The translations under genes were made by a program, and so were the position numbers. Below, in pieces: positions 23,203 to 42,236 of a stretch of DNA of 64,000 nucleotides (position 1 is its first letter; each line of letters begins with the position of its first letter). Under the pieces are notes generated by a model. It worked only from the letters and a program-made list of their open reading frames with translations, made no database searches and was not told where the DNA came from. Origin of the DNA: an uncultured Verrucomicrobiae bacterium (GTDB taxonomy: Bacteria > Verrucomicrobiota > Verrucomicrobiia > Limisphaerales > UBA11358); NCBI GenBank assembly GCA_963845665.1, contig CAWJTA010000002.1:2733581-2797580 (forward strand), written 5' to 3'.

Positions 23203-23832
23203 ATGAACATCGAACATCGAACGCAGCGTGAAAGCATCGTGAAACCGTTCTCAGGTTTGTTTTGCTTTTTCTTCCTTGCTGCCTCGAGTGTCTTTGGCCA
23301 GGACACAACGAACGCGTTGCCGAAACTCGTACCCCCGCATGGGACGTTGCCACCGACATTCTGGGAGCAAAATGGAACGGCAACCGCAGCCGGCGGTGTT
23401 ATTTTTCTGGCGCTGGCTGCAGTTCTCGTGTGGCGGAATCTGAAATCGAGGCCGCAATGGGTTTTGCCTCCGGACGTCGTTGCCCGAGAGGCTCTGGCGA
23501 AATGTCGAGGCCAGCCTGAAGACGGAAAAGTCTTGAGCGAAGTTTCACGAGCGTTGCGCCGCTATATCGGGGCGGCTCTTAAATTTCCACCTGGCGAATT
23601 CACGACCGCCGAATTTTGCCGCGAACTTGAGCACCGCGAACAAATCACGCCTCAATTGAAACGAGCAATTGCCGATTTTTTGCTCGCATGTGACGAGCGA
23701 AAATTTTCCCCGGCCGTTTCATCCGGGCCGCTCGATGCCGCGGGCCGCGCTTTGGAATTTGTCGATCTTACCGAAAAAGAAAGTTGCAGGCAGGACGACG
23801 CCTGTGCCGCTAAAAATGAACGGTCAGTTTGA
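23203..23832 (+). CDS. Small membrane protein in the DUF4381-like position of Bat operons
   Basis: ATG at 23203 lies 4 nt after the DUF58 stop. It has a signal/TM segment and a second TM 'AAGGVIFLALAAVLVW'. It overlaps the next gene by 17 nt. Confidence 0.6.
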   Translation: MNIEHRTQRESIVKPFSGLFCFFFLAASSVFGQDTTNALPKLVPPHGTLPPTFWEQNGTATAAGGVIFLALAAVLVWRNLKSRPQWVLPPDVVAREALAKCRGQPEDGKVLSEVSRALRRYIGAALKFPPGEFTTAEFCRELEHREQITPQLKRAIADFLLACDERKFSPAVSSGPLDAAGRALEFVDLTEKESCRQDDACAAKNERSV

Positions 23833-24853
23833 ATTTCAATATCCGTGGGTCCTGGCGTTGTTGACGTTGCTGCCGGTTTACGCCCTGTTGCGTGGTAAAT
23901 TCGGGAAGTGGTCGGCCCTCAAGTTTTCCAGCGCGGAAATCGCCCGGGCGGCCGGCGCACGGATGCGTACGGCCGCGGGGCGTTTGCTGGCGTTTCTGCG
24001 GCTGCTGGCTGTCGGGCTTGGTATTGTGGCGCTGGCCGGGCCGCGGTTGGCGGATTATCACGTCGTCACTGAAACGCCGGGCATTGACATTATGCTCGTG
24101 CAGGACGTGTCCTGGTCCATGATGGCGGTGGACATGGAGCCGGAGGAAAGGCTTTCCCGTTTTGCCATCGCATCGGGGGTGTTGCAGGACTTCATCCAAA
24201 AGCGGCCCAACGACCGGGTTGGTTTGATTGCGTTTTCCGGCAAGTCTTACCTCGTCGGTCCGCTCACGTTGAACCACGACTGGCTCATTCAAAATCTTCA
24301 GCGGTTGCACATCGGCATTATCACCGACCTCGGCACGGCTATCGGAGATGCAGTCGTCGTCGCCGCCAAACGGCTGCATGCGGTACCTAATGCCAAAAGC
24401 CGCGTGATCATCCTGTTGACCGACGGTGACAACAACCTGGGCCAGGTTAATCCGCTTGCCGCCGCGCAAATAGCCGCCGCCCTGGGCGTCAAAGTTTATA
24501 CCATCGGCATCGGTGTCGAAAAGCCGTGCAACATGCCGAAATTCGATCCGCAGACCGGACAGTTTCTCCTCGACGCTAACGGCAACATTATTCCATCCCT
24601 TCTGCTGCAACCGGCAAACTTTTCGGTATTGGGACAAATGGCCAGTTTGTCAGGCGGCCAATTCTACCGCGCCACCAGCCAGCACCAGTTACGAAACATC
24701 TACGACCAGATTAACCGGCTGGAAAAAAACAGGATTACGCGGCGCCGATTCGCCACGTATCATCCGTTATTCGAATGGCCTTTGCTGGCGGCCCTGGGGG
24801 TATTGGCGCTGGAATTGATTTTGGCGAATACGAGATTTCGAAGGGTCCCATGA
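23816..24853 (+). CDS. batA: BatA-type vWA-domain membrane protein
   Basis: 'FEFQYPWVLALLTLLP' N-terminus. vWA MIDAS 'DIMLVQDVSWSM', 'VIILLTDGDNN', 'VKVYTIGIG'. C-terminal TM. Confidence 0.85.
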   Translation: MNGQFEFQYPWVLALLTLLPVYALLRGKFGKWSALKFSSAEIARAAGARMRTAAGRLLAFLRLLAVGLGIVALAGPRLADYHVVTETPGIDIMLVQDVSWSMMAVDMEPEERLSRFAIASGVLQDFIQKRPNDRVGLIAFSGKSYLVGPLTLNHDWLIQNLQRLHIGIITDLGTAIGDAVVVAAKRLHAVPNAKSRVIILLTDGDNNLGQVNPLAAAQIAAALGVKVYTIGIGVEKPCNMPKFDPQTGQFLLDANGNIIPSLLLQPANFSVLGQMASLSGGQFYRATSQHQLRNIYDQINRLEKNRITRRRFATYHPLFEWPLLAALGVLALELILANTRFRRVP

Positions 24854-25881
24854 CAAATTTTGCCAATTTTCATTTTGCCGCGCCGGGCTGGCTTTGGCTG
24901 GCCGTCCTGGCGCCGATCACGCTGGCGTTGCTGCAGCGTTACGCGGAGAAAGCGCGGCGGGAAGAACTGGCGCGAATGGTTGCATCACGTTTCGCCGGGC
25001 AACTCACCGCCTCCCACAGCCCGGGGCGGCGGTGGTTCAAAAACGGCCTGCTGCTAGCGGCGTTTGCGCTGGCCGGCGTTGCTTTGGCGCGGCCCCAGTG
25101 GGGCCAGGTGCAGACTTCCAATGGCTGGGTTGGTGAGGATATTGTTTTTGTGGTCGATTGCTCGCGCAGCATGTTGTCCACCGATGCCCAGCCGGACCGG
25201 CTGGACGCAGGGAAATATGCGATTCTGAATTTTGTCCGGCGCTACGCCCGCGGACGCGTCGGCCTGGTGGCCTTTGCGGGCAGTGCTTTCACTGAATGCC
25301 CTTTGACCTTTGACTACGATGCATTTGATGAAACATTGTTGGCAATGAACGACAAAACTATTCCCGATCTGGGCACCGACGTTGGCCAGGGGCTGTACGA
25401 AGCAAATCGGGACATGGATAAGCACAGCCGGCGAAAGCTCATCGTGCTGCTCACCGATGGCGAGGACCTCGACAAGACCGGCGCAGCCGCTGCCAGGTCG
25501 CTGGCGACAAATGGCGTGGTTGTATTTACAATCGGTGTGGGCACGCCCGCCGGGAAGGAAATCCAATTTGTGAACGACGCCGGCCAAAAGGAATGGGTGC
25601 GCGATGCCCGTGGCAATCCCGTTCGCAGCAGGCTGGATGAACGAACGCTCCACGAAATTGCCGAGGCGACCGGAGGCCAATATTATCCACTCGGCGCGGC
25701 AGGAAACGGTTTAATGAACGTTCGCTTCGCCGTTCACGCGCTGGACACCGCCGGCAGCACCCGCCGTTCTGAGGCGACCGGGGTGGATCGCTTTCATACA
25801 CCTATCGCCCTTGCCCTGGTGTTGATTGTGGCCGAATCATTGATCAGCACGCGCAGGAGGTTAACCTTGGAGAACTCATGA
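24850..25881 (+). CDS. batB: BatB-type vWA-domain membrane protein
   Basis: ATGA overlap with batA. 'FHFAAPGWLWLAVLAP', vWA 'IVFVVDCSRSM', 'LIVLLTDGED', 'VVVFTIGVGT'. Confidence 0.85.
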   Translation: MTNFANFHFAAPGWLWLAVLAPITLALLQRYAEKARREELARMVASRFAGQLTASHSPGRRWFKNGLLLAAFALAGVALARPQWGQVQTSNGWVGEDIVFVVDCSRSMLSTDAQPDRLDAGKYAILNFVRRYARGRVGLVAFAGSAFTECPLTFDYDAFDETLLAMNDKTIPDLGTDVGQGLYEANRDMDKHSRRKLIVLLTDGEDLDKTGAAAARSLATNGVVVFTIGVGTPAGKEIQFVNDAGQKEWVRDARGNPVRSRLDERTLHEIAEATGGQYYPLGAAGNGLMNVRFAVHALDTAGSTRRSEATGVDRFHTPIALALVLIVAESLISTRRRLTLENS

Positions 25882-26825
25882 TCTCGCCCCCAAATTTGAG
25901 ACGGTGTTTGCTGGCGTCCATGCTGGCATTGGCATGCTCAGCGTTCGCCGATTCTCAGACAAATTCCATCGCGCCGGGTGATCTACCGGTGAGCGCCCGG
26001 GATTTTTACAATGACGGAACGGAACTGCTCGCCTCAAAAAAATTCTCCGAAGCGGAACAGATGTTCCTGTCCGCGCTTGCTGCGCAGGATGAGCACGTGC
26101 AGCCGGCGGCGCTTTATAATTTGGCCCACGCGCGATTTGGTGAAGGGTTGGCGGCGTTAAAGAAAGGGCCGAATGCCCAATCCATTACGGCGCAAAGCAG
26201 CGGACCCGCTGCGGAGACAGCATCGGCAATTCAACAGGGAGAGGCGGCGCTGGGGGGAAATGATTTGTCAAAACTGATTGCCGCCTACATGGCGGGACAC
26301 GGAGCTCGCCACGACCTGCGCACCGCCGAGGCAGCCGTCAAGGAGGCGATCGAAACTTATGGTGAAACACTGCGCAAATGGCAGCGGGCGGACGATGATT
26401 TCAAAAGCGCGGCCGAGTTAAATCCAGCCGATGTGGATGCCGCCCGAAATGCCCAAATCGTCGAGCAATATATCGCGCGCCTTGTGGATAGCCTGCGTAA
26501 AATGCAGGACCTTGGCGCCAGGCTCCACGACCAGCACAACAAAATAAATCAGGTCCTGCGCCAAATCGGCGGCCGTATTCCGCAACCAAATCTTCCGCCC
26601 GGCGCCCCAGGCGACAAGGATGAGGACGACGGAATGCAGCCCGACCCAGGATCGTTGGAGGGTATGAAGGAAGGCGCCACGCGCACCGGCAGCCCCATCG
26701 GAACGCCTCTTTCGCCGGATCAGGCCGCGCAAATCCTCAATGGCATCCCGATCGACTCCGCGCAGCAGCTAATGATGAACGAGGCTAAAACCGGCCGTAA
26801 CCAGCAACCCGGTCTTACATGGTGA
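25878..26825 (+). CDS. batC: BatC-like TPR protein
   Basis: ATGA overlap with batB. Lipoprotein-like signal 'LLASMLALACSAF', TPR-like helices and an acidic C-terminal region. Confidence 0.6.
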   Translation: MISPPNLRRCLLASMLALACSAFADSQTNSIAPGDLPVSARDFYNDGTELLASKKFSEAEQMFLSALAAQDEHVQPAALYNLAHARFGEGLAALKKGPNAQSITAQSSGPAAETASAIQQGEAALGGNDLSKLIAAYMAGHGARHDLRTAEAAVKEAIETYGETLRKWQRADDDFKSAAELNPADVDAARNAQIVEQYIARLVDSLRKMQDLGARLHDQHNKINQVLRQIGGRIPQPNLPPGAPGDKDEDDGMQPDPGSLEGMKEGATRTGSPIGTPLSPDQAAQILNGIPIDSAQQLMMNEAKTGRNQQPGLTW

Positions 26826-26834
26826 TGATTTAAC

Positions 26835-28610
26835 ATGCGTTTTGTTCAGTGCCTCATTTCGATAATATTTGTGGCAGTCGCGGCGCCATTGTCGCGGGCG
26901 CAGGTCTCGCCTCACGTATCCCCAGAGCAGGCCGCCAGGTTGCAGGTTGCCCAACCATTGGCAGATCTCTCTTCGCCGATCACTGTCACCGCGAATTTTG
27001 ATCCGCCTGCCGCGCGAGTCGGCCAAAGCGTATTTTACAGGGTTGCGCTTGACGGACCCGGGGGAGACATCAAATGGCCCGGCGCTATTTCTGCGTCGCC
27101 TCAGTTGAAGTTCGGACCACTTTCTCAGGACCAATTGGTGCATGGTTTCGCGAATAAATACCTTCTGCTTACGTCGTTTCTCTACGAAGTGCGGGCCACG
27201 GCGGCGGGACATTTTATCGTCCCGGGTTTCGATGTGACGGTCGATGGCAAGCCCGTTCAAATCCCGGCGGCAACCCTGGATGTGGACAAATCCATTTCCG
27301 GACCGGCGCCCCGCCGCCTGGTGCTTGAGGTTTCGAGCACAAATGTCTTTCTCGGTCAACCCCTTCGTGCCCGCGTCATGCTGCCCGCCACACCGGACAA
27401 TCAAATCGAGGCACTTCGCGAGGTTCAATTCGGCGGCAACGGATTCAGCAGCGATCTAACCACGATGGGCCAGGCTGTGCAAACCATCGGAGTTGACGGC
27501 CATGCTGTTCCGGCGTTCATTTATGAAATTACCCTGACGCCGATCGAGGCAGGGCCGCAGGCGTTTTCCGCGCAGGCGTTCGCCGCCGGACGTGACTTTT
27601 TTGGATCCATCACAGTTGCCGGCCACGTCGCCATTTCCGGCGGACAGCCGAACTATGTTTTGCTGGCTTCGAATCCCGTTCGTGTAAATGTTCGTCCGCT
27701 GCCGGTTGCCGGCCAACCGGCTGGTTTCAACGGGTCAATTGGATCCTTCTCGCTCGGCCGTCCTCAGTTGTCTACGAATCGGATTCAGACGGGCCAACCG
27801 ATACGGCTCACGGTTGCCGTTCACAGCCAGGGTGCGTTGAATCGCCTGGTCGCCCCGGCGCCGCCGGCTGTCAATGACTGGGAAATCATCCCTGACAACC
27901 CTCCGGATTTTTCCTTCACATTGATTCCACTGACCGATACCACCCGGCAGACGCCCGCGATTCCGTTCAGTTGTTTTGATCCGGCTCTTGACGGCTACGT
28001 GGATTTGACCATTCCCTCTCTGCCCGTCACGGTCACATCCCAGGGGCTGCCAACCGAAATTGCCTCGGAGGATTCAGGAATTACGAATTCCTCCCCATCG
28101 AGACTGGGCGAGTTATTGCCATCGCCCGGCAGTATGGTCGCCGGCCTCGCTCCTCCACAATTCCGTGGCTGGTTAATCTTTCTCCAAATTGTTCCTTTGC
28201 TGGCGATTCTTGGGTTGTGGCGATGGGACCGCCACCGTCGATTTTTGGAAGCGAATCCGGCCGTCGTGCGAAGGCGGCAGGCGCGGCGCCTTTTGCGGCG
28301 CGAAAAGCGCCGGCTGCGCGCCGCTGCCAGCCGTGGTGACGCTGCGGCTATCGTTTGCCATGCGGCCGAAGCGATGAAAATCGCATCAGCACCGCACTAT
28401 GCGGCGCATCCGCAGGCCATGGTCTGCTCCGACGTTTTGGACCGGCTCTACGATGCCGACCAGAGCGGCGCCCTTGGCAAAACGGTCCGTGAAATTTTTG
28501 CGGCAGAAGACGCGCGATTCGCGTCGAAAAAACCTCGGACGCAAACCAATTGGCCCGCGCTCCAGGCGGATGTGGACGCTGTGTTGCTGAAACTGGAGGA
28601 GCGCTTATGA
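26835..28610 (+). CDS. batD: BatD-like (oxygen-tolerance) protein
   Basis: 591 aa. Signal peptide, beta-rich body, a C-terminal TM 'WLIFLQIVPLLAILGLW' and an Arg-rich tail. This architecture and position are typical of BatD. Confidence 0.65.
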   Translation: MRFVQCLISIIFVAVAAPLSRAQVSPHVSPEQAARLQVAQPLADLSSPITVTANFDPPAARVGQSVFYRVALDGPGGDIKWPGAISASPQLKFGPLSQDQLVHGFANKYLLLTSFLYEVRATAAGHFIVPGFDVTVDGKPVQIPAATLDVDKSISGPAPRRLVLEVSSTNVFLGQPLRARVMLPATPDNQIEALREVQFGGNGFSSDLTTMGQAVQTIGVDGHAVPAFIYEITLTPIEAGPQAFSAQAFAAGRDFFGSITVAGHVAISGGQPNYVLLASNPVRVNVRPLPVAGQPAGFNGSIGSFSLGRPQLSTNRIQTGQPIRLTVAVHSQGALNRLVAPAPPAVNDWEIIPDNPPDFSFTLIPLTDTTRQTPAIPFSCFDPALDGYVDLTIPSLPVTVTSQGLPTEIASEDSGITNSSPSRLGELLPSPGSMVAGLAPPQFRGWLIFLQIVPLLAILGLWRWDRHRRFLEANPAVVRRRQARRLLRREKRRLRAAASRGDAAAIVCHAAEAMKIASAPHYAAHPQAMVCSDVLDRLYDADQSGALGKTVREIFAAEDARFASKKPRTQTNWPALQADVDAVLLKLEERL

Positions 28611-29335
28611 GAATCGCCACTTCCATCTTCGTCTCGGTCCTGATTTGCTCACTGGCGAGCGCCCGGGCAGCGACCAATGATGCTTTTGCCCTGGGCGTCG
28701 CGGCATATCGCAGCGGAGATTTTGGCCCTGCCGCGCGGGCGTTTAAAGATGCCGCCGCAGCTCAGCCGGCTGCCGGCACGTTCGTCAACCTGGGGCTGGC
28801 GGAATGGCAACGCGGCCACGGTGGTCCGGCGATATTGGCCTGGCAACAGGCGCTGTGGATTGATCCGTTCGAAAAGCGCGCCGCCGAAAACCTCCACTTT
28901 GCACGCGAGGTGACCCAATTGGATGCGCCACAGCTTAACTGGTTTGAAGCATTGTCCAATTGCCTGCCCTCCGCGGGTTGGCTTTGGCTCTCCGGAGCCA
29001 GCCTCTGGCTGTCCGCAGGTATGTTGCTATTGCCGTCCGTTTTCCGGCGGCAAAAAGCGCCCTGGCATCAAACGCTGGCAGCGTGCGGTCTTTGCGTTTT
29101 TTTGTTCAGCCTGGCGGGAAACTGGGGCGTCATCAGCCGCACGCGCGTCGGATTTGTCCTGCAAGATAACGCGCCGCTGCTCTTGACGCCCACGCGCGAC
29201 GGCGAAGTCACTTCGACTTTGACCTCTGGCGAGCCGGCGCGTGAACTTCGGAGGCTGGGAAATTACTACTTGATTCGCACTGTGTCTGAAACGGGATGGG
29301 TTGAACGCGAAGAATTCGGCCTGGTATCGCAATAG
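28607..29335 (+). CDS. batE: BatE-like TPR + TM + SH3-like protein
   Basis: ATGA overlap with batD. Signal peptide, TPR ('AFALGVAAYRSGDFGPAARAFKDAA'), two TM helices and an SH3-like end 'GEPARELRRLGNYYLIRTVSETGWVEREEF'. Confidence 0.6.
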   Translation: MRIATSIFVSVLICSLASARAATNDAFALGVAAYRSGDFGPAARAFKDAAAAQPAAGTFVNLGLAEWQRGHGGPAILAWQQALWIDPFEKRAAENLHFAREVTQLDAPQLNWFEALSNCLPSAGWLWLSGASLWLSAGMLLLPSVFRRQKAPWHQTLAACGLCVFLFSLAGNWGVISRTRVGFVLQDNAPLLLTPTRDGEVTSTLTSGEPARELRRLGNYYLIRTVSETGWVEREEFGLVSQ

Positions 29336-29585
29336 AGCGTCGCTCAAATTCCACGCCAATTTGCCTGAAGTTCACGCTTTCCTTCTCTTGACATTTTTCC
29401 TCATTCTTTTAATTGCTTTGTAAATTGACAAAATCCTGCATTGGCACCTGTCGTGCTTGTTTGCGAAAACCGTGTGAACTCGAATGCGCCCAGTCGCCAG
29501 CGGACCTTGGCATTGACCTTGACCGTTGTATGTCCGGATGACAAACTGGCTGGCACAGATAAGAACCCCTGTCCCTCAACACGTT

Positions 29586-32500
29586 ATGTTACAAAAAATC
29601 CCTCGGACTCTCCGGCTGATAATCTTCTCGATTTTTTGCCTTCATCTTATGAGTGCTGAAGCCAGCGTCACCGTGAGTATTCTGCAGGGCAACCAGACTG
29701 TGTCGGTGGGCGAAACAGTTGACTTCGGCGCCACAGTCACGACAACCGCGGGCGAGGTGATCACGGGTTATCAATGGTTGATGTCAACCAATGCCCAGGG
29801 TCCGTTCACCGTGGTTGGCAACTCAAGCGCCCTGGTTCTGGCTGACGTTCAAACCAATGCTGCCGGATATTATTTTGTGAGTGTCACCTATGGGCCTGTT
29901 GGCAACCAGCAAACAGTATCCAGCACAGTGGTGAGTCTGGTGGTGAATCTCCAACCGCAAGTCGCAGTCCAGCCGGTGAGCCTGTCCCTTCCGGTGGGGA
30001 GCAATGCCGTGTTCAGCGTTGTGGTTGGTGGAGCGCCACCGCTGACTTTGCAATGGCAAAAAAACGGGACAAATCTGACGCATAGCAGCCGCGTGACGGG
30101 AACCACCGGTACGACTCTCGAAATTCAGAATTTAGCGCTGACCGATTCCGGCAATTACGAAATTGTCGTGACCAATTCCTACGGTTCAACTAATAGCCAG
30201 GTGGCTGCATTGCAGGTGTATTTGGCTCCGCCAGTCTTTACCGGCCCGACCAACGCGGTTGGAAAACAGGGATATGCTTTCAATTATACGATTTCAGCCA
30301 CTGGCACGGCGCCGATCACGTTTGGCGCCGCCGGATTGCCTGCCGGCCTGAATGTGAACTCGACGAACGGCGTGATTTCGGGCATCCCGTCCGTTGCGGG
30401 CGTTTTTGATATTGGTCTTTTCGCGACGAATGCTGCGCAGACGACCATCGGAAATCTATATCTCACATTGGCCGATGACATTCCCGTCATCACCAGCGCA
30501 ACGAGTGCGACGGGCCAGCAGGGGCAACCATTCAGCTACACTATTACGGCTACCAACGACCCGGCATTATTCAGCGCCGTATCGTTGCCTCAGGGACTGA
30601 GCGTGGACCCAAACAACGGCATCATCTCCGGCGTGCCGCTGGTCAGCGGTTCGTTCCCCATAACAATAGGCGTGACCAACGCCTATGGGTCCAACAGCGA
30701 AACGTTGACGTTGAATCTGGCTTCCGGCGCGCCAACCATCATCAGTCCCCTCGGGGAAAATGGCGCGCAAGGACAATCGCTCAGTTACACGATCGCGACT
30801 CACAACAACGCTGCTTTGTTTAGCGCCGCGCCGTTGCCTGAGGGTCTGAGTCTGAATACGAGCAGCGGTGTCATTTCGGGTGTGCCGTTGGTCAGCGGTA
30901 CGTTCCCCGTCGCCATTGGCGCGATGAACCAATATCGGTTCCGACAGCAAGACCGTCACGTTTGACATTGGCGGCGGAGTGCCGGTCATCACGAGTCCCT
31001 TGAATGTCACGGGCTGGGAGGAGCAGACGGATTTCGATTATACTATCACCGCAAGCAATGCGCCGGCCGTGTTTTGGGCCTCGGACCTGCCGACAGGACT
31101 TTCGGTGAATACGAACACAGGTGACATCGCCGGCTACACCACTCTATGCCGGCAGCTACGCCATTCCGTTGTTTGCCGCAAATGCCTGGGGAGTCGGAAC
31201 GGCCACCCTGCAATTGACCATAACGAACATGGCTATCACCAATCTCGTCATCGCCAATGTAATGACCAATTATTCGTCTCCCTATCTGCTGGAGTTCAAG
31301 TTTTCGCTGCGTCGACGGCAATGATCCAGACGAGCCATGCCGTGGTCGCGTCGCCCTCTTTGATGTCCGTGACCGCTTTGAAAATGGCGTGCCGGTCAGT
31401 CCGTCGGAAACCTCCGTCCTTCTCCGGCCCATTGACAGCAGTCCGCCAAGGTCCTCAAGGGGTATCTGGTTCTGGACTTCACCGAGAGCATCGCCTCGAC
31501 CGGCCAACGGCGAAGACGGCAATGGCATTCCCGACGCCGTTGCCGCCGAAGTCGCCAGCGCCCAAAGCTTTGTCAACGAACAGCCGGCCGACGTCGCAAA
31601 TCGGTGTCTATGAGTTTCACCGGGACGATGAAGCGCCGCAGCAGGTGCATGTCGTTAACCACCGATAAAACTCTTCTGGACAATGCTCATCGCCGGCATC
31701 TGGACCAATTATGTCCAGAATTTCCGCCGGTGGCTCGCGCATATGGGATGCCTTGGGCGATGCGATCACCGCCTTGGCGCCGGCCAACAGCGACGAGAGC
31801 CACTACATCGTCTTCATGTCCGACGCCCAGGATGACTCCAGCACCAACACCTTGCAGAACGTGATTGACGCCGCGACCAATGCCAGCGTGCAAATTTACA
31901 CCGTCGGCATCGGCGACGATGTGAACACACCAACATGCTCGAGCCATTACCAGTTCCACCGATGGCCGGTAATATACCCCTCCACCAATTTGGTCGGACT
32001 TCGCCCTTGATTTCGCCCAGATCGGCAAGGACCTCAGCAGCCAATACATTCTGCGCTGGGCCACGCTGCAGCGCGCCGCCGTTCCATTCATGCCTTCGTT
32101 CCAAATCACTTATCAAGGTGTGACCGCCGACTCGCCCACCAATCCGCCCCCCTTCATCAGCGGCACAAATTTTGTGACCGTCACGAATTCCGACGGTGTC
32201 ATTGAGCACCAACGACGTTTATCTTTACACGACCAATGATATCATTCCGCCCTACGACCCTGCCACCTACGCGGGCGACGTGTTCGCTGGCTCACTGCGC
32301 TTCGTTTCGGATGCCGGCGTGGATCCGCCGGGAATCACATTGTGTGCCACTTACGCCCCGCGCTATATCAGCCGCCTCCATCTGCATTATCGCGCCAACT
32401 GGCCCGCCACCTTGAGCCTGGAATCCACCAATCCCGGCGAAATACTGGCCGGCTGGACTTTGACCCAAACCAACGACGGTGCCGGCGGTCAATGGGCATA

Positions 32501-33093
32501 TTCTGAGCAGCCCGAATCCCTCCATTTTATCCGATTGCATCCCGTTTGCTGATTTCGGCAAGCCTCCTGACCTTTTCTTTCCAGGATCCCATCATCGTCA
32601 GCAATGCTTTCAGCGAGTTTGCAGTGGACAACACCATTTACACCAATACCGCCGGAACGAATTTCTACGGGTTCACGCTCCAAAATACCAACGCCATTTT
32701 CACCTTCTAGCCTTGCCGCCGCCCCACGGAACTCCCATACCGTGGTTGCAGTCAGCTACGGGTTTACAAACAATTTCGCCGCGGCGGAACTGCTCGACCC
32801 CAACGGAAATGGGTTTGACGGTCTGGCAGGACTATCTCGCCGGGCTGGATCCACTGGACACCAACTCCACTTTTGCCGTCCAATACGCCTCGTCGCAAAA
32901 TCCGCCCCAAATCGTCTTCAACACCGCTGTTGGACGAACCTATCGTGTTGAGTGGGCCATAAACCCGGATGACGAATGGACGGTGTTGCGCGACGGGATT
33001 GTCGGCACGGGCAGCGATGTGATTTTCACAGATGAGCGTAATTTGAGCGGCGCACCAACTATGTACTATCGCGTAGCCGTGGAAGTTCCGTAA
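29586..33093 (+). pseudogene. Giant secreted Ig-like / He_PIG-repeat / vWA adhesin-like gene, disrupted (~1165 codons if repaired)
   Basis: Signal peptide 'MLQKIPRTLRLIIFSIFCLHLMSAEA', Ig-like modules, 4 He_PIG-type repeats, a vWA-like domain ('YLVLDFTESIAS', 'IYTVGIGDD', 'STDGR*YTPP') and a C-terminal beta-sandwich ending 'MYYRVAVEVP'. The frame is intact from 29586 to 30935. After that, the homology-consistent reading changes frame about 16 times and passes an in-frame TAA (31970-31972) before the stop at 33091-33093. Confidence 0.8.
30228..31228 (+). repeat. Four tandem ~249-nt (83-aa) He_PIG-type 'putative Ig' repeats inside the adhesin-like gene
   Basis: Units start at about 30228, 30480, 30729 and 30979. 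Each has the pattern 'P.I(T/I)S....G..G..FSYTI.A.N....F.A..LP.GLS.....G.ISG.P...G.F...'. Confidence 0.8.
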
Positions 33094-33230
33094 TTCCCGT
33101 GGATCTGATTTGACGCGCCGAATCGCGGTTTGTCCCCGGTGCCCACGCCACGACGAGAACGCGCGAAAAGAGCACTCTCTGATCCGTAGTTGGCTCTCCG
33201 CTTTTGGGCCCAAAAAACGAAGTGAGAATT

Positions 33231-35630
33231 TCATTTTTTTGATGATTGGGGCAGTCCTGAAAAAGAATCCTGGTTTGTAAATCTTAGGGACCATTTAATG
33301 GTCCGGCTCGTTTTAGAGGAGATCATAACACGAAGCCAACCACTTTCTTCATCTGCCGGGGGATTGGGAGTGATGATCGCGTCTTCCGCTGATACCGAGG
33401 CAGAGATAAATTTCCAGTTGCTTGAGTCGTCATCTACTCCGGCAATCCGAATCTCGTACGGGTCATTCCCGACAACCTGGCTGGTCGCCGAAAGCGTTCC
33501 TGTAGATGGATTCCATTGCTCGCCCTTAACGTCAACTATTCCCTGGGTTACATGCTGTGAAGTGCTAACAAGCACGGGGTGGTCTTCAGCAGCGCGGACC
33601 GCAATGACGCGGCATGATTCCGCCGGCACATCGAATTTGAAAACGCCTTTGAAAGACGGCAGAGGTGATTTGTTCCAAAAGTCAAAGGCGTAATAAGACT
33701 TCGTCGCATCCAATCCCGCTTTGGCGGCGTCATAACTTATATATTTCTTCTCGCTGTCCCAATTATACAGCCCAAGGACGTCACGATGCACGGAGCCGCT
33801 GGCGTCTGTGGTCAGCCAAATCTCCGGCATCGTGGTATCAAAATAATCCACCGGGCGTGCTGTGGCATGATAAGGAATCATACAACGTTTGAGAATATCA
33901 AGACGTTCAGGTGAAAGGCCGGGAAGCCAATCGCTGTCGAGGTTAAACATTCCGCTCAGAGCCATCCACGAGGCAAGCAGTTGCGCATGATTCAGCTTTA
34001 CGCTGTCGCGAACGTACGCGGGATCCGGATCATTCCACCATACGCGTCCATTCAGAAAGTAAAGCCGGTTGCCGCGAATTGGTCCGGTGATGATGCCACC
34101 GCCATCGGGATGAATAATCTCCTTGCGGTAGTCCTCCCAGCCAAACCCGTTATCCGGGCCAATCCGCATCGAGTCCACCAGGCCGATGGAGCCGCCCAGG
34201 GAACGCATATTCTGGCTGGCGCAGCAGCCGGAGAAAAAGACATTTGGCCCGGCGCCTTTGCGCAGAAGCTTTAATCCATCCCGAAGCGCTTCGATACTGG
34301 TTTTCATCGGGTTGTAAAAAGGCAGATAGTTGCCGATGGCATCATCTTTATACCCATCGTTAACATATAGTTGTTCTGTGACAGAACCTGTCCACAGCCC
34401 GTCCAACTTAAAATAGTCATAGCCCCACTCATGTATCGTGTGAGCCAGGTCTATAATGTGTTTTTGAACATCCGGCCTCGTTAAATCGAGTGACGTGCCG
34501 CCCCAAACCGTATCGTAAGGGCTGCCATCCAGGCGTTTCATGAACCAATTTTGTCGGCCTATATATTCCGGGTCCTGATAGTTGCGGGCAAAGGGGATAA
34601 ACCATATTCCAGCGGTCAACCCGTTGCTTTTTATCATATTCGAAATCGGCTTCATGCCGCGCGGATAGGCGCCACCAGGCGCCGCCCTGGTAAACCCCCG
34701 CCGGGGACCGTTAAATAACCCGCCATCCTGCCATCCATCATCGATCTGCACAAACGAGAATCCGTAAGGCTTGAGTTCTTCAGCTGCGTATTTAGCCAGC
34801 ATGGTGATGTTTTTCTCGTTGCTGCAACCGCCCCCGCCTTTTTTATCAGTCAGTCCGCCTACCTCGGAATACCAGGTACAATAACCGGCAGCTTGCGGAT
34901 GGAGCTGAATGTGATACCGCTTTTTAATCGCATCGGCGTAGGTTTCTTCGCCGATTCGCGCATCATCAAACACACCGATGGCCAGAGTTTCCAATGTTTC
35001 TGACCTCCTGGGAAGTATATGCAAATGGCCGTAGTCAATCTGGGCTTTAAATTCAGTACGACCATCTTTCAAGCTGGAAAATATCACTCCACTGCCGCGG
35101 TCTTCAGTCAGCCAGCCGGCGACAACCCCGCGGCGTGTCCCTGGATCGGCAAGTGTCAGGAACAGATAACTCCCAGGGTTCATGTCGGGAGCGGTCAAAC
35201 CGGCTGTTCCCATCGTGCGGAGTTCGCCAGGCGACTTGCCGAGATCAAGGTCGAATGTCACCACAGCAAGCTTGTGGTAGTCGGTGACAGCGGCGCAATT
35301 ATTGCGCAATTCCCTGCGAACAAGAAGAAACGGAAGATGGTTATAAAGCTCGAGATTCACGATGCTGCCGTTGGCCTGTGACACCACGATTCTCGATCCC
35401 TTGCCAAACACCGGGTCATTAGCAGGACGGATAGCCGCCTCCTTTACCCCGCCTTCCAATTTGCCATTAACCAGAAAGCGGTCGCCTGTGGCCTTTTCTA
35501 TTCCGCAGAACGCTCCGGTTACCGCGTCAAACTCAATGGACAATGCTTCATTACCGATAGTATATGGAGTCGCAATTAATTCATTTGGAACCCAAACCGC
35601 TAAAATTAAAATAATTGCCCAGTATTTCAT
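33231..35630 (-). CDS. Secreted alpha-galactosidase-like glycoside hydrolase (GH36/GH27 clan-D-like)
   Basis: Signal peptide. 'FSFVQIDDGWQDG' and 'EWGYDYFKLDGLW' match the DDGW and Y-x-K-x-D motifs of melibiase-type enzymes. The family assignment is tentative. Confidence 0.6.
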   Translation of the reverse strand: MKYWAIILILAVWVPNELIATPYTIGNEALSIEFDAVTGAFCGIEKATGDRFLVNGKLEGGVKEAAIRPANDPVFGKGSRIVVSQANGSIVNLELYNHLPFLLVRRELRNNCAAVTDYHKLAVVTFDLDLGKSPGELRTMGTAGLTAPDMNPGSYLFLTLADPGTRRGVVAGWLTEDRGSGVIFSSLKDGRTEFKAQIDYGHLHILPRRSETLETLAIGVFDDARIGEETYADAIKKRYHIQLHPQAAGYCTWYSEVGGLTDKKGGGGCSNEKNITMLAKYAAEELKPYGFSFVQIDDGWQDGGLFNGPRRGFTRAAPGGAYPRGMKPISNMIKSNGLTAGIWFIPFARNYQDPEYIGRQNWFMKRLDGSPYDTVWGGTSLDLTRPDVQKHIIDLAHTIHEWGYDYFKLDGLWTGSVTEQLYVNDGYKDDAIGNYLPFYNPMKTSIEALRDGLKLLRKGAGPNVFFSGCCASQNMRSLGGSIGLVDSMRIGPDNGFGWEDYRKEIIHPDGGGIITGPIRGNRLYFLNGRVWWNDPDPAYVRDSVKLNHAQLLASWMALSGMFNLDSDWLPGLSPERLDILKRCMIPYHATARPVDYFDTTMPEIWLTTDASGSVHRDVLGLYNWDSEKKYISYDAAKAGLDATKSYYAFDFWNKSPLPSFKGVFKFDVPAESCRVIAVRAAEDHPVLVSTSQHVTQGIVDVKGEQWNPSTGTLSATSQVVGNDPYEIRIAGVDDDSSNWKFISASVSAEDAIITPNPPADEESGWLRVMISSKTSRTIKWSLRFTNQDSFSGLPQSSKK

Positions 35631-35773
35631 CTTTTACCATCATTCTGCAGCCCGCCAAGGTTGAATAGACTGATTGGGATTGCCCGTTGCTCTGTATTAG
35701 TACCTATCAGTCCCATTTGTCTCTTTCGCCGGCTGTTCTAATTTCTATTCACATTCACGCGACGGTTTAATTC

Positions 35774-36700
35774 TCAAGGATGAGATTCAGGAGTCCAACC
35801 CCGGTACCAATACAAAGTCCAAAGTAAATCGAGACGGACGAGCTTGACGTGGGCGTCAGCGAAAGCGACGTTTATAGACCCGGGAAGGATGCCGCCGGCC
35901 GGCCATTGTGTATGAGCTTTGGCAGTTGGATGCCCGGAATAGCTGCCGTGGCGCGCAATGCAGAATCGTTCGATACCTTCAGTGCTGCCGCTTGGATCAT
36001 TTGCCGTTGAACCCATCGTCTGCGTATACAGGCTATAAGGCGGAAACTGGTTCACGTCCGGCCAGGCATCGCACCACAACGCATCCGCGATGAGAGGTGT
36101 TTCTGCCGGAAACTTCACCATGGATTCCTTTTGAAAATTGATCGTGGTATCTCTGTCATAGTAAAAATAACCGTTCAAGCCGTAGCCTCCCTGATACTCT
36201 GTCGTATTTGGATTGCCACCATAAGGAACACCGTTGTAATACCATACTTTATCCGCTGCGCCATACATGGAGTTGGCCGGAATTTGGGCGCCGAATAATT
36301 CCGGCGTCATGGGACAAATGCGAACCTTTTGCACTGTAGATTGATAGCTAATCAGATTCACCATCCATATGCCCTGACCCTGGCCTCCACCATTGTTAAA
36401 AAAAGTGGTGCCATTGTCGTCGAAATACATTTTGCAGGCGATGGCCATTTCCTTTTCGTTGCTCATGCAGGCGGCCTGCAGAGCCTTTAACTTGCCCTTG
36501 TTCAATGCCGGCAATAGGATCGACGCCAGGATGGCAATGATGGCCACCACTATCAAAAGTTCTATTAGAGTGAAGGCCGATGGACCATAAACATTTGGCT
36601 TTTTCACGAATAGCATCGAATTTTCAAAGCGGCCTGCCATACTGACAGCCGGGAGATTTCTCCCGGCTGCCATGCTGTTTGATGACTGAATTTCCAACAC
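35774..36700 (-). CDS. Prepilin-type N-terminal cleavage/methylation domain protein (pseudopilin-like, H-X9-DG/DUF1559-like)
   Basis: 'SAFTLIELLIVVAIIAILASILLPAL' and C-terminal 'INVAFADAHVKLV'. The start is either ATG 36700 (4 nt after the LamG gene) or ATG 36616 ('MLFVKKPNVYGPSAFTLIEL'). Confidence 0.85.
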   Translation of the reverse strand: MLEIQSSNSMAAGRNLPAVSMAGRFENSMLFVKKPNVYGPSAFTLIELLIVVAIIAILASILLPALNKGKLKALQAACMSNEKEMAIACKMYFDDNGTTFFNNGGGQGQGIWMVNLISYQSTVQKVRICPMTPELFGAQIPANSMYGAADKVWYYNGVPYGGNPNTTEYQGGYGLNGYFYYDRDTTINFQKESMVKFPAETPLIADALWCDAWPDVNQFPPYSLYTQTMGSTANDPSGSTEGIERFCIARHGSYSGHPTAKAHTQWPAGGILPGSINVAFADAHVKLVRLDLLWTLYWYRGWTPESHP

Positions 36701-36704
36701 TTTC

Positions 36705-38846
36705 TTATGGCGGTGTTAAAGTTGTGCGATAAAACGCCGCCGGACCATTTGCCGGAACCGCGTACGGGGATGTCGCAGTATTCGCGTATGTCCAGGGACC
36801 GTTAATTGAGGTGGCTTCCTGCAGATAGCCAGAGTTCCAGGTAATGATGACGTTCGGGCCTGAAAGCTGGATTGAGACAAGCGGAGGAGAGGCATTTGTT
36901 CCTGTAAGGCCAATTTGGTAATGCTGCTGGATTTGGGCGGGTGTCAGAGCATAATCATAAATGGCTACGTTGTTTATTGAACCGTCCAGCGATGGCGGTA
37001 TCACCCCGGCTGGACCATTTGCCGGGCGTGCCCCGATCGCCCACCCCCCGTTGGCCGTAACAGCGCCCGGCGGCATATTCGTGTCCAACATGTCCGCAAT
37101 ATCAACGCCGTTGCGATACAAACGCCAATATGTGCCATCCGCCACGCCGACCAAATAGACCCACTGCCCCTGATCTTCGGGGGGGACCGCGTAATAAGGA
37201 CCAAAAGTCGGAGGAATGGCGACTTGCACGTCGCGTTCGAAGCTATATTCACCATATGGATCAATTTCAAGAGCGTCGTCTGACTTGTTCGGGTTTGCAT
37301 CAATTGCCGGCCCATGGGTGACAATGTATTGTTGATCAGAGATATCCTGAAGCTGGACCCAGGCTTCGATCGTGAGCGGCCCGACAATGCCCATCGCAGT
37401 GGGATTATTAATGTAAATACCGTTGGTAGCGGCTGAATCTAAAGTCACCGCAGTTCCAAGATAGCTGCTGGCTCCGGGTTGTTGGAAAAGCACGGGTGCA
37501 TTGGTCGCATCGTAGGTGACATAAGTGCCGTTATTATCAACAGGGTCAATCAAGTCATAACAGACCGGGCCGTTTGTTTCATGCAACGGGTAAAAAGCCA
37601 CGGGTAGGGCACTGATAACGTTGGACTGATAAACATCCAAAGGCAACGCCTGGACCAGTAGTGTGACGGGACCGATATTGGTGCTGCCGAGGATGTTCGT
37701 GACGGTGACGCTGTAACTGCCCGAATTCGTCAATTGAAGATCGTTTAAAGTCAATGTGTTGTTTGTGGCGCCGTGAATGGGCGATGCGCCGTTATACCAT
37801 TGATAGGACAAGGGCTGTGTTCCACCGGCAGTGATGGAAAAGGTACGGCTGTAGCCGATGTAGTTTGTCCCACCGACCGGCGGCGCAGACGGGAAAGGGG
37901 CCGACACGTTCGCACCCGAGACACCAGTCAAATAATGGTTCAGGATTTGGGTAGGTGTGAGAACATTGGTATAATACGCGACATGCGATACGGCACCGTT
38001 AAAAAACAAGTCGCGCGTATTCCCCGTGTTCCCGGCGCCACCAAAATAGGATTCACAATACGACCCAATGATAAACGGTTCTATGTGAGTTGGCAACGCG
38101 AAGATGCCTGCATAGGTCGGGTTGTTAGCCGCGTAGATCAAAACTCCGTTCTCATAGAATTTAAAGGAAGATGCACTATAAGTAATAACCATATAACTGT
38201 CCGCCCCTGCCACGTTATTTGTAAAAGCTTCTGGAGTGGGCCCGCTCGAGGTCCAGCCAGCATGGTTTCCATGGGCAAGGTTTACGTCCACTATTCCCGC
38301 GGAACCCGAACCATCAACATGAGTATCAATCCACCATCCGGCCTGGCTGCCGCTGTTGGCTTCGAGGCCTAAAATCACCTGTTCATTTCCGTTGGTATAA
38401 CCAATCGGGTAAGTTGGCAAATGCACCCAGGCTTCCATCGTGAAATTGCTGGCCGGGTCCATTTGAGCATTGTAGGGGACCACAATTTGTGCGTTGGTTA
38501 ACTGGCCGTCTAAGTTTGTGAAATACACGGCAGTTTCATTCGGGAATCCAGGCAAAAGGCCGGGGCCTCCCATGTTATAGGAGATGCCGTCTGATGATCC
38601 GGCGCCCGCGGGAATAAATGACACGTGATAATCCTTGGTTGTCGGCAAATCCGTGGAGGTCATCAGAGTCCCGCTATTGGTGCCGGCGACGTCGTTGATA
38701 ACAGAACCGGATGTTTCCTGCAAAGGCCAGTATGCGTAAGCCCCGTCACTCAATACTGTGCTATCGTAGGCCGTTAAACCAAGCGCAAGGCTGGCGTTTA
38801 GCATCATCAATGCGGCGATCAAGGTGCTTAGTTTATTTATTTTCAT
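36705..38846 (-). CDS. Secreted double LamG (concanavalin-like lectin) protein with a central Ig-like module
   Basis: Signal peptide 'MKINKLSTLIAALMMLNASLA'. Two 'YWPL.E..G....D' LamG starts. Ig-like 'PLSYQWYNGASPIHGATNNTLTLNDLQLTNSGSYSVTVTN'. A conserved C-terminal ~60-aa module follows. Confidence 0.8.
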   Translation of the reverse strand: MKINKLSTLIAALMMLNASLALGLTAYDSTVLSDGAYAYWPLQETSGSVINDVAGTNSGTLMTSTDLPTTKDYHVSFIPAGAGSSDGISYNMGGPGLLPGFPNETAVYFTNLDGQLTNAQIVVPYNAQMDPASNFTMEAWVHLPTYPIGYTNGNEQVILGLEANSGSQAGWWIDTHVDGSGSAGIVDVNLAHGNHAGWTSSGPTPEAFTNNVAGADSYMVITYSASSFKFYENGVLIYAANNPTYAGIFALPTHIEPFIIGSYCESYFGGAGNTGNTRDLFFNGAVSHVAYYTNVLTPTQILNHYLTGVSGANVSAPFPSAPPVGGTNYIGYSRTFSITAGGTQPLSYQWYNGASPIHGATNNTLTLNDLQLTNSGSYSVTVTNILGSTNIGPVTLLVQALPLDVYQSNVISALPVAFYPLHETNGPVCYDLIDPVDNNGTYVTYDATNAPVLFQQPGASSYLGTAVTLDSAATNGIYINNPTAMGIVGPLTIEAWVQLQDISDQQYIVTHGPAIDANPNKSDDALEIDPYGEYSFERDVQVAIPPTFGPYYAVPPEDQGQWVYLVGVADGTYWRLYRNGVDIADMLDTNMPPGAVTANGGWAIGARPANGPAGVIPPSLDGSINNVAIYDYALTPAQIQQHYQIGLTGTNASPPLVSIQLSGPNVIITWNSGYLQEATSINGPWTYANTATSPYAVPANGPAAFYRTTLTPP

Positions 38847-39009
38847 GATTATTGATTTAGGGTTTTGTTTTTGTTTGCTGCGCTCTGCCAGGGCCAGGGT
38901 CCGCCGAGCCTCACCTCAACACGTAAATTGAAAATGCGACGCCGAAAACATTGTTGTCGGGTATTCATGCTGATAGTTAGTTTTTACACCAGTCGTGACT
39001 TCCGCACAA

Positions 39010-39025
39010 TCCGTCAAATGACGGA
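39010..39025. promoter_or_regulatory. 7-2-7 palindromic box TCCGTCA-AA-TGACGGA, copy A (between the LamG operon and the sensor kinase)
   Basis: Exact 16-mer. On the minus strand it is followed directly by TTGTGC (39004-39009), 17 nt, then TAAAAA (38981-38986). It lies 19 nt upstream of the kinase TTG start. Confidence 0.6.
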
Positions 39026-39043
39026 GACGCGCTTTTTCATTGA

Positions 39044-42232: not shown

Positions 42233-42236
42233 CCTT

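What the first reader, a model, noticed from the sequence alone, without database searches (positions are those of the whole stretch)
30936..32814. Seventeen coding lesions packed into 1.9 kb of an otherwise intact adhesin-like gene, with a strong bias to single-base insertions
I followed the repeat- and domain-consistent reading by hand. The gene is clean for 1350 nt, then needs the following repairs:
- Extra single bases at about 30936, 31135, 31313, 31505, 31596, 31648, 31688, 31725, 31936, 32207, 32502, 32560 and 32814.
- Single-base losses at about 31441, 32707 and 32753.
- An in-frame TAA at 31970-31972, in 'STDGR*YTPP', where vWA proteins usually have G-x-Y-Y.

Positions are good to roughly +/-15 nt, and the two compensating pairs after 32500 are the least certain. 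The roughly 60 kb around this region shows no comparable damage. Thirteen of the 16 indels are +1 insertions, mostly outside homopolymers (TAT-C-GGT, GGC-T-ACA, CGT-C-GAC, GTC-G-CAA, GTG-C-ATG, GCT-C-ATC). Bacterial pseudogene decay is normally deletion-biased, so this is unusual.

Three explanations are possible. It may be a genuinely and recently hyper-damaged locus, a locally unpolished stretch from an insertion-prone sequencing technology, or something stranger.
Basis: seen in the sequence. Interest (0 to 1): 0.55.

Follow-up and report, generated by a model that had tools for sequence, protein, structure and literature searches.

The report
Frameshift-riddled adhesin gene, probably assembly error
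A 1.9 kb stretch of an otherwise normal surface-protein gene carries about 22 small insertions and deletions, and their pattern points to a local sequencing or assembly error, not to a gene that is really broken in the bacterium.

Summary
The gene at 29586-33093 (+) encodes a Verrucomicrobia (Limisphaerales-type) secreted Ig-like / He_PIG-repeat / VWA protein. Frameshift-aware alignment to 8 intact homologues and 12 orthologous loci shows at least 18 frame changes between 30934 and 32818. Optimising each junction gives a 1163-aa stop-free reading after removing 20 extra bases and adding 4 missing ones.

The "in-frame TAA" lies inside a short out-of-frame excursion and is not a nonsense substitution.

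Natural pseudogene decay is rejected:
- The repaired protein keeps 94% of conserved columns, as intact homologues do.
- A relative-rate test shows no excess amino-acid change.
- Insertions outnumber deletions about 17:4.
- Only 2 of 13 single-base insertions could extend a homopolymer, and the sites share no motif.

The lesions form a sharp block. An independent Logan assembly of run ERR11523669, which contains the same strain, matches 25.5 kb of the window with no indels. It yields nothing retrievable for the damaged locus.

Best explanation (about 0.78): a local consensus error from an insertion-prone long-read patch or a mixed-allele consensus. No reads were available, so this is inferred, not shown. 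Interest is low.

The parts
29586..33093 (+). Whole gene. After repair it gives a 1163-aa secreted Ig-like / He_PIG-repeat / VWA surface protein. The native stop is at 33091-33093.
   Evidence: Repaired translation has no internal stop. It is colinear with full-length orthologue proteins from L003 and L014 over residues 9-1176. Pfam domains.
29586..29660 (+). N-terminal hydrophobic, signal-peptide-like segment (MLQKIPRTLRLIIFSIFCLHLMSAEA).
   Evidence: Read directly from the translation. Not tested with a predictor.
29955..30203 (+). Immunoglobulin I-set / Ig_3 domain, in the undamaged part.
   Evidence: Pfam PF07679 E=3.6e-18 and PF13927 E=2.1e-14, residues 124-206.
30483..30716 (+). Best-scoring of four He_PIG (putative Ig) repeats. 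The internal repeats are only about 71% alike at DNA level.
   Evidence: Pfam PF05345 E=1e-27, 4 stretches. Self-BLAST.
31575..31996 (+). von Willebrand factor type A domain, visible only in the repaired reading. It lies entirely inside the damaged block.
   Evidence: Pfam PF00092 E=8.9e-10, residues 663-800 of the repaired protein.
30934..32818 (+). Damaged block of 1885 nt with about 22 indel events (20 extra bases, 4 missing), about 1.1 events per 100 nt, and sharp edges.
30934..30936 (+). One extra base (A, T or C of ..aatATCggt..). Not a homopolymer extension.
   Evidence: The public-record protein P0082 ends in the frameshifted tail RFRQQDRHV, so this lesion is in the deposited record.
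31134..31135 (+). One extra base (C or T in ggCTaca).
31312..31313 (+). One extra base (T or C in cgTCgac).
31328..31329 (+). One extra base (A or G in ccAGacg). It opens a 16-codon excursion into frame 1 (TSHAVVASPSLMSVTA).
   Evidence: score 1064 to 1561 together with the next item.
31374..31379 (+). One missing base at gcTTTgaa. It is compatible with a T4-to-T3 run and closes the excursion.
31433..31441 (+). One missing base, in a loop of variable length among homologues. The position is loosely defined.
31500..31503 (+). One extra base within CCGG. Compatible with extending a 2-nt run.
31593..31596 (+). One extra base (gacGTCGcaa).
31647..31648 (+). One extra base (G or C in gtGCatg).
31687..31688 (+). 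One extra base (T or C in gcTCatc).
31725..31727 (+). One extra base. The unique best repair removes G31726 and restores the conserved NFP(G/A)GSR.
31930..31945 (+). Net +1. Best modelled as two extra bases at 31935-31937 plus one missing base at 31943-31945. A single extra base is only slightly worse.
   Evidence: +41 summed score.
31970..32002 (+). Short out-of-frame excursion that contains the TAA at 31970-31972. Two extra bases at 31971-31974 and one at 31992-32002. The repaired reading is GRYYPSTNL(A/V)..ALDF.
   Evidence: The TAA is an extra codon relative to all homologues. Score 1529 to 1772.
32197..32207 (+). One extra base in a variable loop. The position is loosely defined.
32498..32499 (+). 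One extra base (A or T in gcATatt).
32562..32564 (+). One extra base (aaGCCtc). Compatible with extending a 2-nt C run.
32707..32709 (+). One missing base. It restores the conserved Tyr in FTF-Y-ALPPPHGTP and removes the apparent TAG.
32748..32753 (+). Two extra bases (slightly preferred) or one missing base.
   Evidence: +56.
32811..32818 (+). One extra base. Best repair removes A32818, giving GNGFAVWQDY. The alternative is one base of GGGTTT.

Best explanation
The organism most likely carries an intact gene for a secreted Ig-like / He_PIG / VWA surface protein. The roughly 22 indels between 30934 and 32818 are most likely errors in the deposited consensus sequence.

The window comes from a 3.3 Mb contig, apparently a long-read metagenome-assembled genome. 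Somewhere in its assembly, about 1.9 kb was written from poor evidence. I see two possible routes.

(a) A coverage trough was bridged by one or very few reads of an insertion-prone single-molecule chemistry and never effectively polished. Raw PacBio-type reads show insertions > deletions >> substitutions, and the errors are not tied to homopolymers.

(b) Reads from two alleles of this segment were merged. SNPs were aligned as insertion-plus-deletion pairs, and the insertion half was called more often than the deletion half.

Shown here:
- the lesions exist in the sequence;
- the block has sharp edges;
- the flanks agree with an independent assembly;
- the repaired protein is as conserved as intact orthologues;
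- the indel spectrum is unlike natural mutation.

Inferred, not shown: that the raw reads do not support the extra or missing bases, and which of routes (a) and (b) applies.
For: 1. The damage is indel-only. The repaired protein matches 170/180 (94%) of columns that are at least 90% conserved among 20 homologues, within the range of intact homologues (0.80-1.00). Tajima-type relative-rate counts in the damaged part are 26-35 window-unique against 29-39 orthologue-unique changes, p>0.5 for four different ingroups. The repaired 1163-aa reading has no stop.

2. The spectrum is unlike natural mutation. Events split about 17 insertions to 4 deletions (p=1e-5 against a 1:2 deletion-biased expectation). 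Only 2/13 single-base insertions could extend a homopolymer, against 44% expected even for random insertion (p=0.03). No run of 4 nt or more is hit.

3. The insertion:deletion ratio fits raw PacBio-type reads. It is not different from 8.0:3.2 (p=0.47). PMC7671305 reports about 8% insertions, 3% deletions and 1-1.7% substitutions, uniformly distributed, with about 1% residual error after consensus correction.

4. The block is sharp. No lesions occur in the 1348 nt of the same gene upstream (P=3e-7 at the block's rate).

5. The flanks are perfect. Logan contigs of run ERR11523669 carry the same strain and match window 22025-29620, 34175-43021 and 47786-56866 with 3 mismatches and 0 gaps in 25.5 kb.

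6. That independent assembly breaks at 29620 and 34175. No Logan-derived protein, intact or fragmentary, matches the repaired gene. This is expected if the locus has low or heterogeneous read support there.

7. All 12 orthologous loci in other genomes are intact.

8. Residual frameshift errors are a recognised property of long-read assemblies. Abstracts of PMC8812927, PMC12007338 and 10.1101/2021.08.23.457338 say so.
Against: - No reads, coverage data or assembly metadata could be examined, so the key claim is untested.
- The platform is unknown. If the assembly is nanopore-only (Flye plus Medaka, as for the related MFD MAGs; PMC12313526), the expected errors are homopolymer deletions. That is exactly what is seen once in the orthologue of another long-read assembly (L016, C4 to C3). 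The window's non-homopolymer insertions are not.
- The flanks are of very high quality, so a special local cause has to be assumed.
- Logan contigs for this genome are only 7.6-9.1 kb long, so breaks near the locus could be coincidence. Exact-match look-ups are incomplete: the 315-aa protein encoded at 25878-26825 and called on L001 was reported absent.
- The specific 'two alleles of a SNP written side by side' signature was tested and is not significant: 8/13 against 45-48% expected by chance, p about 0.2.
Confidence: 0.78

Rival explanations
1. Genuine pseudogene formed by ordinary mutational decay. The gene was inactivated and then accumulated neutral mutations.
For: The ORF is disrupted relative to 12 intact orthologues. 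The deposited record itself carries the truncated 438-aa product. Surface adhesin-like genes are often dispensable (own knowledge).
Against: There is no excess amino-acid change. The relative-rate test is balanced and conserved columns are kept at 94%. With about 21 indel events and the roughly 10:1 substitution:indel ratio typical of bacteria (own knowledge), about 200 substitutions and about 10 in-frame stops would be expected in 1.9 kb. The repaired frame has no stops. The insertion bias is about 17:4 instead of a deletion bias. The insertions are not at slippage-prone runs. The upstream 1.35 kb and downstream 0.28 kb of the same dead gene are untouched.
Confidence: 0.05
2. Genuine, very recent, indel-specific hyper-damage of this segment in the living population. 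Examples would be one episode of highly error-prone synthesis, or repeated break repair that adds non-templated single bases (bacterial Ku/LigD-type end joining).
For: Non-templated, non-homopolymer single-base additions are what a terminal-transferase-like activity would give (own knowledge). The damage is confined to one block. Constraint looks intact, as expected if the damage is very recent.
Against: No motif or repeat is shared by the sites that could direct repeated cleavage. About 22 independent events in 1.9 kb with none in the 25.5 kb compared with independent contigs has no known precedent. End joining usually also gives deletions of several bases, and none is seen. An independent k-mer assembly of a read set holding this strain did not reproduce the truncated product or any fragment of the locus.
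Confidence: 0.08
3. The DNA is correct and the gene is expressed through recoding: multiple programmed ribosomal frameshifts, or deletion/insertion editing of the transcript.
For: Only that the repaired reading is perfectly conserved, so a full-length product would be functional.
Against: There is no slippery or stimulatory motif common to the sites. Shifts occur in both directions, and some need two bases skipped. None of the 12 orthologous loci has any shift, and a thirteenth (L016) has only one homopolymer deletion, in the same part of the gene as the window's 32748-32753 lesion but not matching it in kind. About 22 recoding events in one mRNA is unknown in bacteria (own knowledge).
Confidence: 0.01

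Closest known systems
Residual indel (frameshift) errors in long-read or hybrid bacterial/MAG assemblies. This is the problem addressed by proovframe (10.1101/2021.08.23.457338), Kastor (PMC12007338) and Polypolish (PMC8812927).
   Same: Genes are fragmented by 1-2 nt indels while the repaired translation is fully homologous to intact relatives. Errors persist locally where polishing evidence is poor. The insertion-rich, substitution-poor ratio resembles raw PacBio-type reads (PMC7671305).
   Different: Such errors are usually scattered and sit in homopolymers. Here about 22 are packed into 1.9 kb, avoid homopolymers, and lie next to flanks that are perfect over 25.5 kb.
Classical nanopore homopolymer deletion, as in the orthologue on ENA ERZ25039534 contig_666 (L016).
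   Same: Same gene family, long-read assembly, and a frameshift that splits the C-terminal part of the gene.
   Different: L016 has a single -1 lesion in a C run (CCCC to CCC). The window has mostly +1 lesions outside runs.
Bacterial pseudogenes in decaying genomes, which are deletion-biased (Mycobacterium leprae, Rickettsia, Sodalis; Mira, Ochman and Moran 2001; Kuo and Ochman 2009; own knowledge).
   Same: Multiple frameshifts in a gene whose orthologues are intact.
   Different: No excess substitution, no in-frame stops, insertion bias instead of deletion bias, no slippage context, and damage limited to part of the gene.
Programmed +1/-1 ribosomal frameshifting (prfB, dnaX, IS3-family transposases; own knowledge).
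   Same: The product is read across a frame change.
   Different: Those cases have one conserved shift at a defined slippery motif. Here there are about 22 shifts in both directions, with no motif and no conservation in orthologues.
Limisphaerales/Verrucomicrobiota 'putative Ig domain-containing protein' family (I-set + He_PIG repeats + VWA + conserved C-terminal region).
   Same: The repaired product has the same domain order. It is 72-74% identical over the damaged part to the best hits and colinear end to end with the L003/L014 proteins.
   Different: None apart from the frameshifts. The function of the family is not established experimentally (names are 'hypothetical' or 'putative Ig domain-containing').

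Membership tests
Technical consensus/assembly error block | Lesions are absent from, or unsupported by, the raw reads or an independent assembly of the same strain. | not testable with these tools
   No reads are available. The independent Logan assembly of ERR11523669 covers the flanks but yields nothing retrievable for 29621-34174.
Technical consensus/assembly error block | The underlying gene shows no sign of relaxed selection (indel-only damage). | tested here: met
   94% of conserved columns are kept. The relative-rate test is balanced. The repaired frame has no stop.
Technical consensus/assembly error block | The error spectrum matches a sequencing chemistry. | tested here: inconclusive
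   The insertion:deletion ratio fits PacBio-type raw reads (PMC7671305). It does not fit homopolymer-type errors of nanopore, HiFi or Ion chemistries. The platform of the record is unknown.
Technical consensus/assembly error block | A discrete block bounded by high-quality sequence. | tested here: met
   The block spans 30934-32818. There are 0 indels in the 25.5 kb of compared sequence elsewhere in the window, including both sides of the locus. P=3e-7 for the clean upstream part of the gene.
Pseudogene by natural mutational decay | The ORF is disrupted relative to intact orthologues. | tested here: met
Pseudogene by natural mutational decay | Elevated substitution rate, loss of constraint, and in-frame stops. 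| tested here: not met
Pseudogene by natural mutational decay | Deletion-biased indels concentrated at homopolymers or repeats (slippage). | tested here: not met
   About 17 insertions to 4 deletions. 2/13 are homopolymer-compatible and no run of 4 nt or more is hit.
Programmed ribosomal frameshifting / recoding | A shared slippery or stimulatory motif at the shift site. | tested here: not met
   Site contexts show no common motif.
Programmed ribosomal frameshifting / recoding | The shift is conserved in orthologues. | tested here: not met
   None of the 12 orthologous loci has a shift.
Phase-variable contingency locus | A simple-sequence repeat or long homopolymer at the frameshift site. | tested here: not met
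Verrucomicrobial Ig / He_PIG / VWA surface-protein family (for the gene product) | Domain order I-set, He_PIG repeats, VWA, conserved C-terminal region, with full-length colinearity to family members. | tested here: met
   Pfam scan of the repaired protein. Alignments.

The most novel reading that the evidence does not exclude
The indels are real in the cells. A localised process that adds mostly single, non-templated bases without substitutions would then have hit 1.9 kb of a surface-protein gene about 20 times very recently. Candidates are repeated break repair by a LigD-like polymerase or an unknown targeted mutator. This would be a kind of bacterial hypermutation not described before.
Probability: 0.05. 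Interest if true: 0.8.

Novelty: not a real feature. Interest (0 to 1): 0.15.

Why it matters
If it is an artefact, as I judge most likely, the value is practical. A deposited 3.3 Mb contig of otherwise very high quality contains a 1.9 kb patch with about 1.3% indel error. That patch turns a 1163-aa surface protein into a 438-aa fragment in the public protein set (P0082). Pseudogene counts, pangenome comparisons and domain censuses for this lineage would be misled.

The case also shows that an error block can be recognised from sequence alone. The tests are indel-only damage, balanced relative rates, a non-slippage insertion spectrum and sharp block edges.

If the lesions proved real, the insertion-only, non-templated, sharply bounded pattern would be a new mutational phenomenon worth following up.

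Tried and rejected
- **E. coli genomes.** A search with the locus gave no match, so this is not an enterobacterial sequence.
- **GTDB representatives.** An exact-pattern scan for the gene start found nothing, so the source genome is not among them.
- **Independent copy of the damaged locus.** I used exact look-ups of neighbouring proteins. I also guessed 12 possible partial products of a Logan contig adjacent to L002, and looked up the truncated product P0082. Only flanking contigs were obtained. Exact look-ups are incomplete, so absence is weak evidence.
- **'Doubled wobble SNP' idea.** Most +1 sites can be read as c1c2XY with both c1c2X and c1c2Y synonymous, which suggested two alleles written side by side. 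Simulation showed a random insertion looks like this 45-48% of the time, so 8/13 is not significant. The idea survives only as one possible route. Its main support is that the inserted base differs from its neighbours more often than chance predicts.
- **Codon-boundary bias of insertions.** Abandoned, because equal-scoring alternative repairs make the codon slot indeterminate.
- **Paralogous repeat as the cause of mis-polishing.** Only the 71%-identical He_PIG repeats are found inside the window. The rest of the genome could not be checked.
- **Identifying run ERR11523669.** The literature search gave no hits, and no supplementary files are held for the MFD paper.
- **Not used.** Structure prediction and RNA tools have no bearing on the question.
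Full report
**What is there**

The window has about 54% G+C and is densely coding. The region of the finding is one gene on the + strand, from ATG 29586 to the stop at 33091-33093.

The reading is open from 29586 to 30935 and then hops between frames. I stitched the frame segments by eye and searched the C-terminal 612 residues, which cover most of the damaged block. This gave 73 homologues. The best are 72-74% identical over 93-100% of the query. They carry VWA (PF00092) and He_PIG (PF05345) domains, and sources name them 'putative Ig domain-containing protein' from Verrucomicrobiae/Limisphaerales MAGs.

A Pfam scan of the repaired protein gives I-set/Ig_3 (residues 124-206), four He_PIG repeats and VWA (663-800), followed by a conserved C-terminal region.

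Upstream lies a cluster of DUF58, BatA/VWA and TPR/SH3 genes. Downstream, on the opposite strand, is a melibiase-like gene.

**Checking the lesions**

I wrote a protein-to-DNA dynamic-programming alignment that allows +1/-1 frameshifts. Against six homologues and the full-length orthologue proteins of L003 and L014, it finds 18 frame changes between 30936 and 32814 and none in 29586-30935.

As a control, the same code run on 12 orthologous loci from other genomes (L003-L014) reported no frameshift or stop.

I then optimised each junction separately against 8 homologues. The best repair removes 20 bases and adds 4, giving a 1163-aa reading without an internal stop.

- There is an additional compensating pair, an extra base at 31328/9 and a missing base at 31374-9. 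Summed score rises from 1064 to 1561.
- The TAA at 31970-72 is an extra codon relative to all homologues. It lies in a short out-of-frame excursion. Removing two bases at 31971-4 and one at 31992-32002 restores GRYYPSTNL.., and the score rises from 1529 to 1772.
- The lesion at about 32750 fits slightly better as +2 than as -1.
- The lesion at about 31935 fits slightly better as +2/-1 than as a single +1.

The first frameshift is in the public record and was not introduced when the window was prepared. The record's own protein P0082 ends in the frameshifted tail ...AMNQYRFRQQDRHV.

**Is the damage local?**

The window's proteins are on record from a 3,303,060-bp NCBI/ENA contig.

An independent Logan assembly of run ERR11523669 contains the same strain:
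- L001 = window 22025-29620, 1 mismatch;
- L002 = window 34175-43021, 2 mismatches;
- L015 = window 47786-56866, identical.

None of the three has a gap. That is 25.5 kb with no indels, against about 22 events in 1885 nt.

At the block's rate, the clean 1348 nt upstream in the same gene has probability 3e-7. Elsewhere, long ORFs with full-length domain matches tile the window.

**Is it natural decay?**

No, on four counts.
- In the damaged part, the repaired protein matches 170 of 180 columns that are at least 90% conserved among 20 homologues. Leave-one-out values for the intact homologues range from 0.80 to 1.00.
- A Tajima-type relative-rate count used four different ingroups and a consensus outgroup. 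It gives 26-35 changes unique to the window against 29-39 unique to the intact relative, all p>0.5.
- With about 21 indel events, ordinary bacterial mutation would bring on the order of 200 substitutions and several in-frame stops (roughly 10 substitutions per indel; own knowledge). The data allow at most a few tens of substitutions and show no stops.
- Events split about 17 insertions to 4 deletions (p=1e-5 against a 1:2 deletion-biased expectation).

**The indel spectrum**

For 11 of the 13 well-placed single-base insertions, no best-scoring candidate base equals a neighbour. In simulation, a random insertion into this sequence extends a run 44% of the time (P of 2 or fewer in 13 = 0.03).

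None of the 17 runs of 4 nt or more, including a C6, carries a lesion. Only the missing base at 31374-9 sits in a short T run.

This pattern argues against two things. One is replication slippage. The other is homopolymer-type sequencing error, typical of nanopore, HiFi, 454 and Ion chemistries. For contrast, the orthologue on another long-read contig (L016, ENA ERZ25039534 contig_666) has a single -1 lesion, and it is a CCCC-to-CCC homopolymer deletion.

The sites share no motif. Shifts go both ways, and no orthologue has them. Programmed frameshifting and site-directed cleavage are therefore unsupported.

**What fits**

Raw PacBio-type reads show about 8% insertions, 3% deletions and 1-1.7% substitutions, uniformly distributed. 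Consensus correction leaves about 1% error (PMC7671305).

The observed insertion:deletion split does not differ from that ratio (p=0.47). The near absence of substitutions and the roughly 1.1-1.3% residual density also fit.

The most economical account is that about 1.9 kb of the consensus rests on one or very few such reads, bridging a coverage trough, and escaped polishing.

A second route is a consensus over two alleles of this segment, for example a recombination tract in a surface-protein gene. SNPs would be aligned as insertion-plus-deletion pairs, with only one half called. This would explain +1, -1 and +2 events together, and why the inserted base differs from its neighbour. However, its most specific prediction, synonymous wobble doublets, is not significant: 8/13 against 45-48% by chance.

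Both routes are artefacts, and I cannot separate them.

There is indirect support from the Logan assembly, which needs each k-mer at least twice. Its contigs stop at 29620 and 34175. No Logan protein, intact or fragmentary, matches the repaired gene.

Two caveats apply to that support. Logan contigs for this genome are only 7.6-9.1 kb long. Exact look-ups are also demonstrably incomplete: the 315-aa protein encoded at 25878-26825 and called on L001 was reported absent.

**What argues against the artefact reading**

I could not see reads, depth or metadata. If the record is a nanopore-only Flye/Medaka MAG, like the related Microflora Danica MAGs L004 and L008 (PMC12313526), the spectrum is atypical. 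The very high quality of the flanks also means a special local cause must be assumed.

A genuine, very recent, indel-specific event therefore keeps a small probability. One example would be break repair that adds non-templated bases.

**Comparison with what is known**

As a phenomenon, this is closest to residual frameshift errors of long-read assemblies (PMC8812927, PMC12007338 and 10.1101/2021.08.23.457338). It is unusual in its density, its avoidance of homopolymers and its sharp block shape.

It fails the defining tests for the alternatives:
- a decaying pseudogene (substitution load, deletion bias, slippage context);
- programmed frameshifting (motif, conservation);
- a contingency locus (no repeat tract).

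After repair, the gene product is an ordinary member of the verrucomicrobial Ig/He_PIG/VWA surface-protein family.

**Verdict**

It is not a real biological feature on present evidence, and interest is low (0.15). The residual novel reading is a real insertion-only hypermutation block (probability about 0.05). Read mapping at the listed sites would settle it.

Noticed in passing
L016 9140-9150 (ENA ERZ25039534 contig_666, 5.9 Mb): The orthologue in another long-read assembly is split by a single missing C in a C run (ATCCC-TGGCTC; expected CCCC) just after the conserved HGTPIP motif. This produces the aberrant tail of P0017 and a separate 103-aa ORF. It looks like a classic homopolymer deletion.
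   Followed up: yes
window 29620 and 34175: Logan contigs of run ERR11523669, which carry the same strain, end at these two points. Nothing from the 4.5 kb between them could be retrieved. This could reflect low coverage, a strain-variable segment, or chance, since contigs are only 7.6-9.1 kb long.
   Followed up: partly
window 22139, 41051, 41301: These are the only differences between the window and 25.5 kb of Logan contigs: three substitutions (T/C, A/C, G/A). They may be strain SNPs or consensus differences.
   Followed up: no
window 12780-14948 (+): A single 722-aa ORF contains three complete enzyme domains in series: LMW phosphotyrosine phosphatase (4-145), RpiB (168-304) and serine hydroxymethyltransferase (316-691). 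It is followed in the same frame, directly after its stop, by a 142-aa ORF with no Pfam match. It may be a real fusion, or stop codons between adjacent genes may have been lost. This exact product is not in the protein collection.
   Followed up: partly
window 22233-29335 (+): A cluster upstream of the damaged gene resembles an aerotolerance (Bat) operon, as I read it from memory: DUF58, BatA/VWA, a second VWA gene and a TPR + SH3 gene. The broken VWA protein thus sits next to other VWA genes of a different family.
   Followed up: no
window 32001-33000: Strongly negative GC skew (-0.195) over the 3' third of the gene, with C at 33% of bases in the repaired block. I did not check whether this is ordinary for the family or related to the lesions.
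   Followed up: no
window 16998-18483 (+) and 15377-16248: ORFs 16998-17918 (SPFH/Band 7) and 17773-18483 (no Pfam match) overlap by 146 nt in different frames. The stretch 15377-16248 has no ORF of 120 aa or more. I did not examine either for frameshifts.
   Followed up: no
window 57335-59182 (+): A 615-aa ORF with a Peptidase_S74 (endosialidase chaperone) domain at 492-542. This domain is typical of phage tail fibres and some autotransporter-like proteins. It lies just after tRNA-Arg (56812-56888, - strand), so it may mark a prophage or island edge.
   Followed up: no
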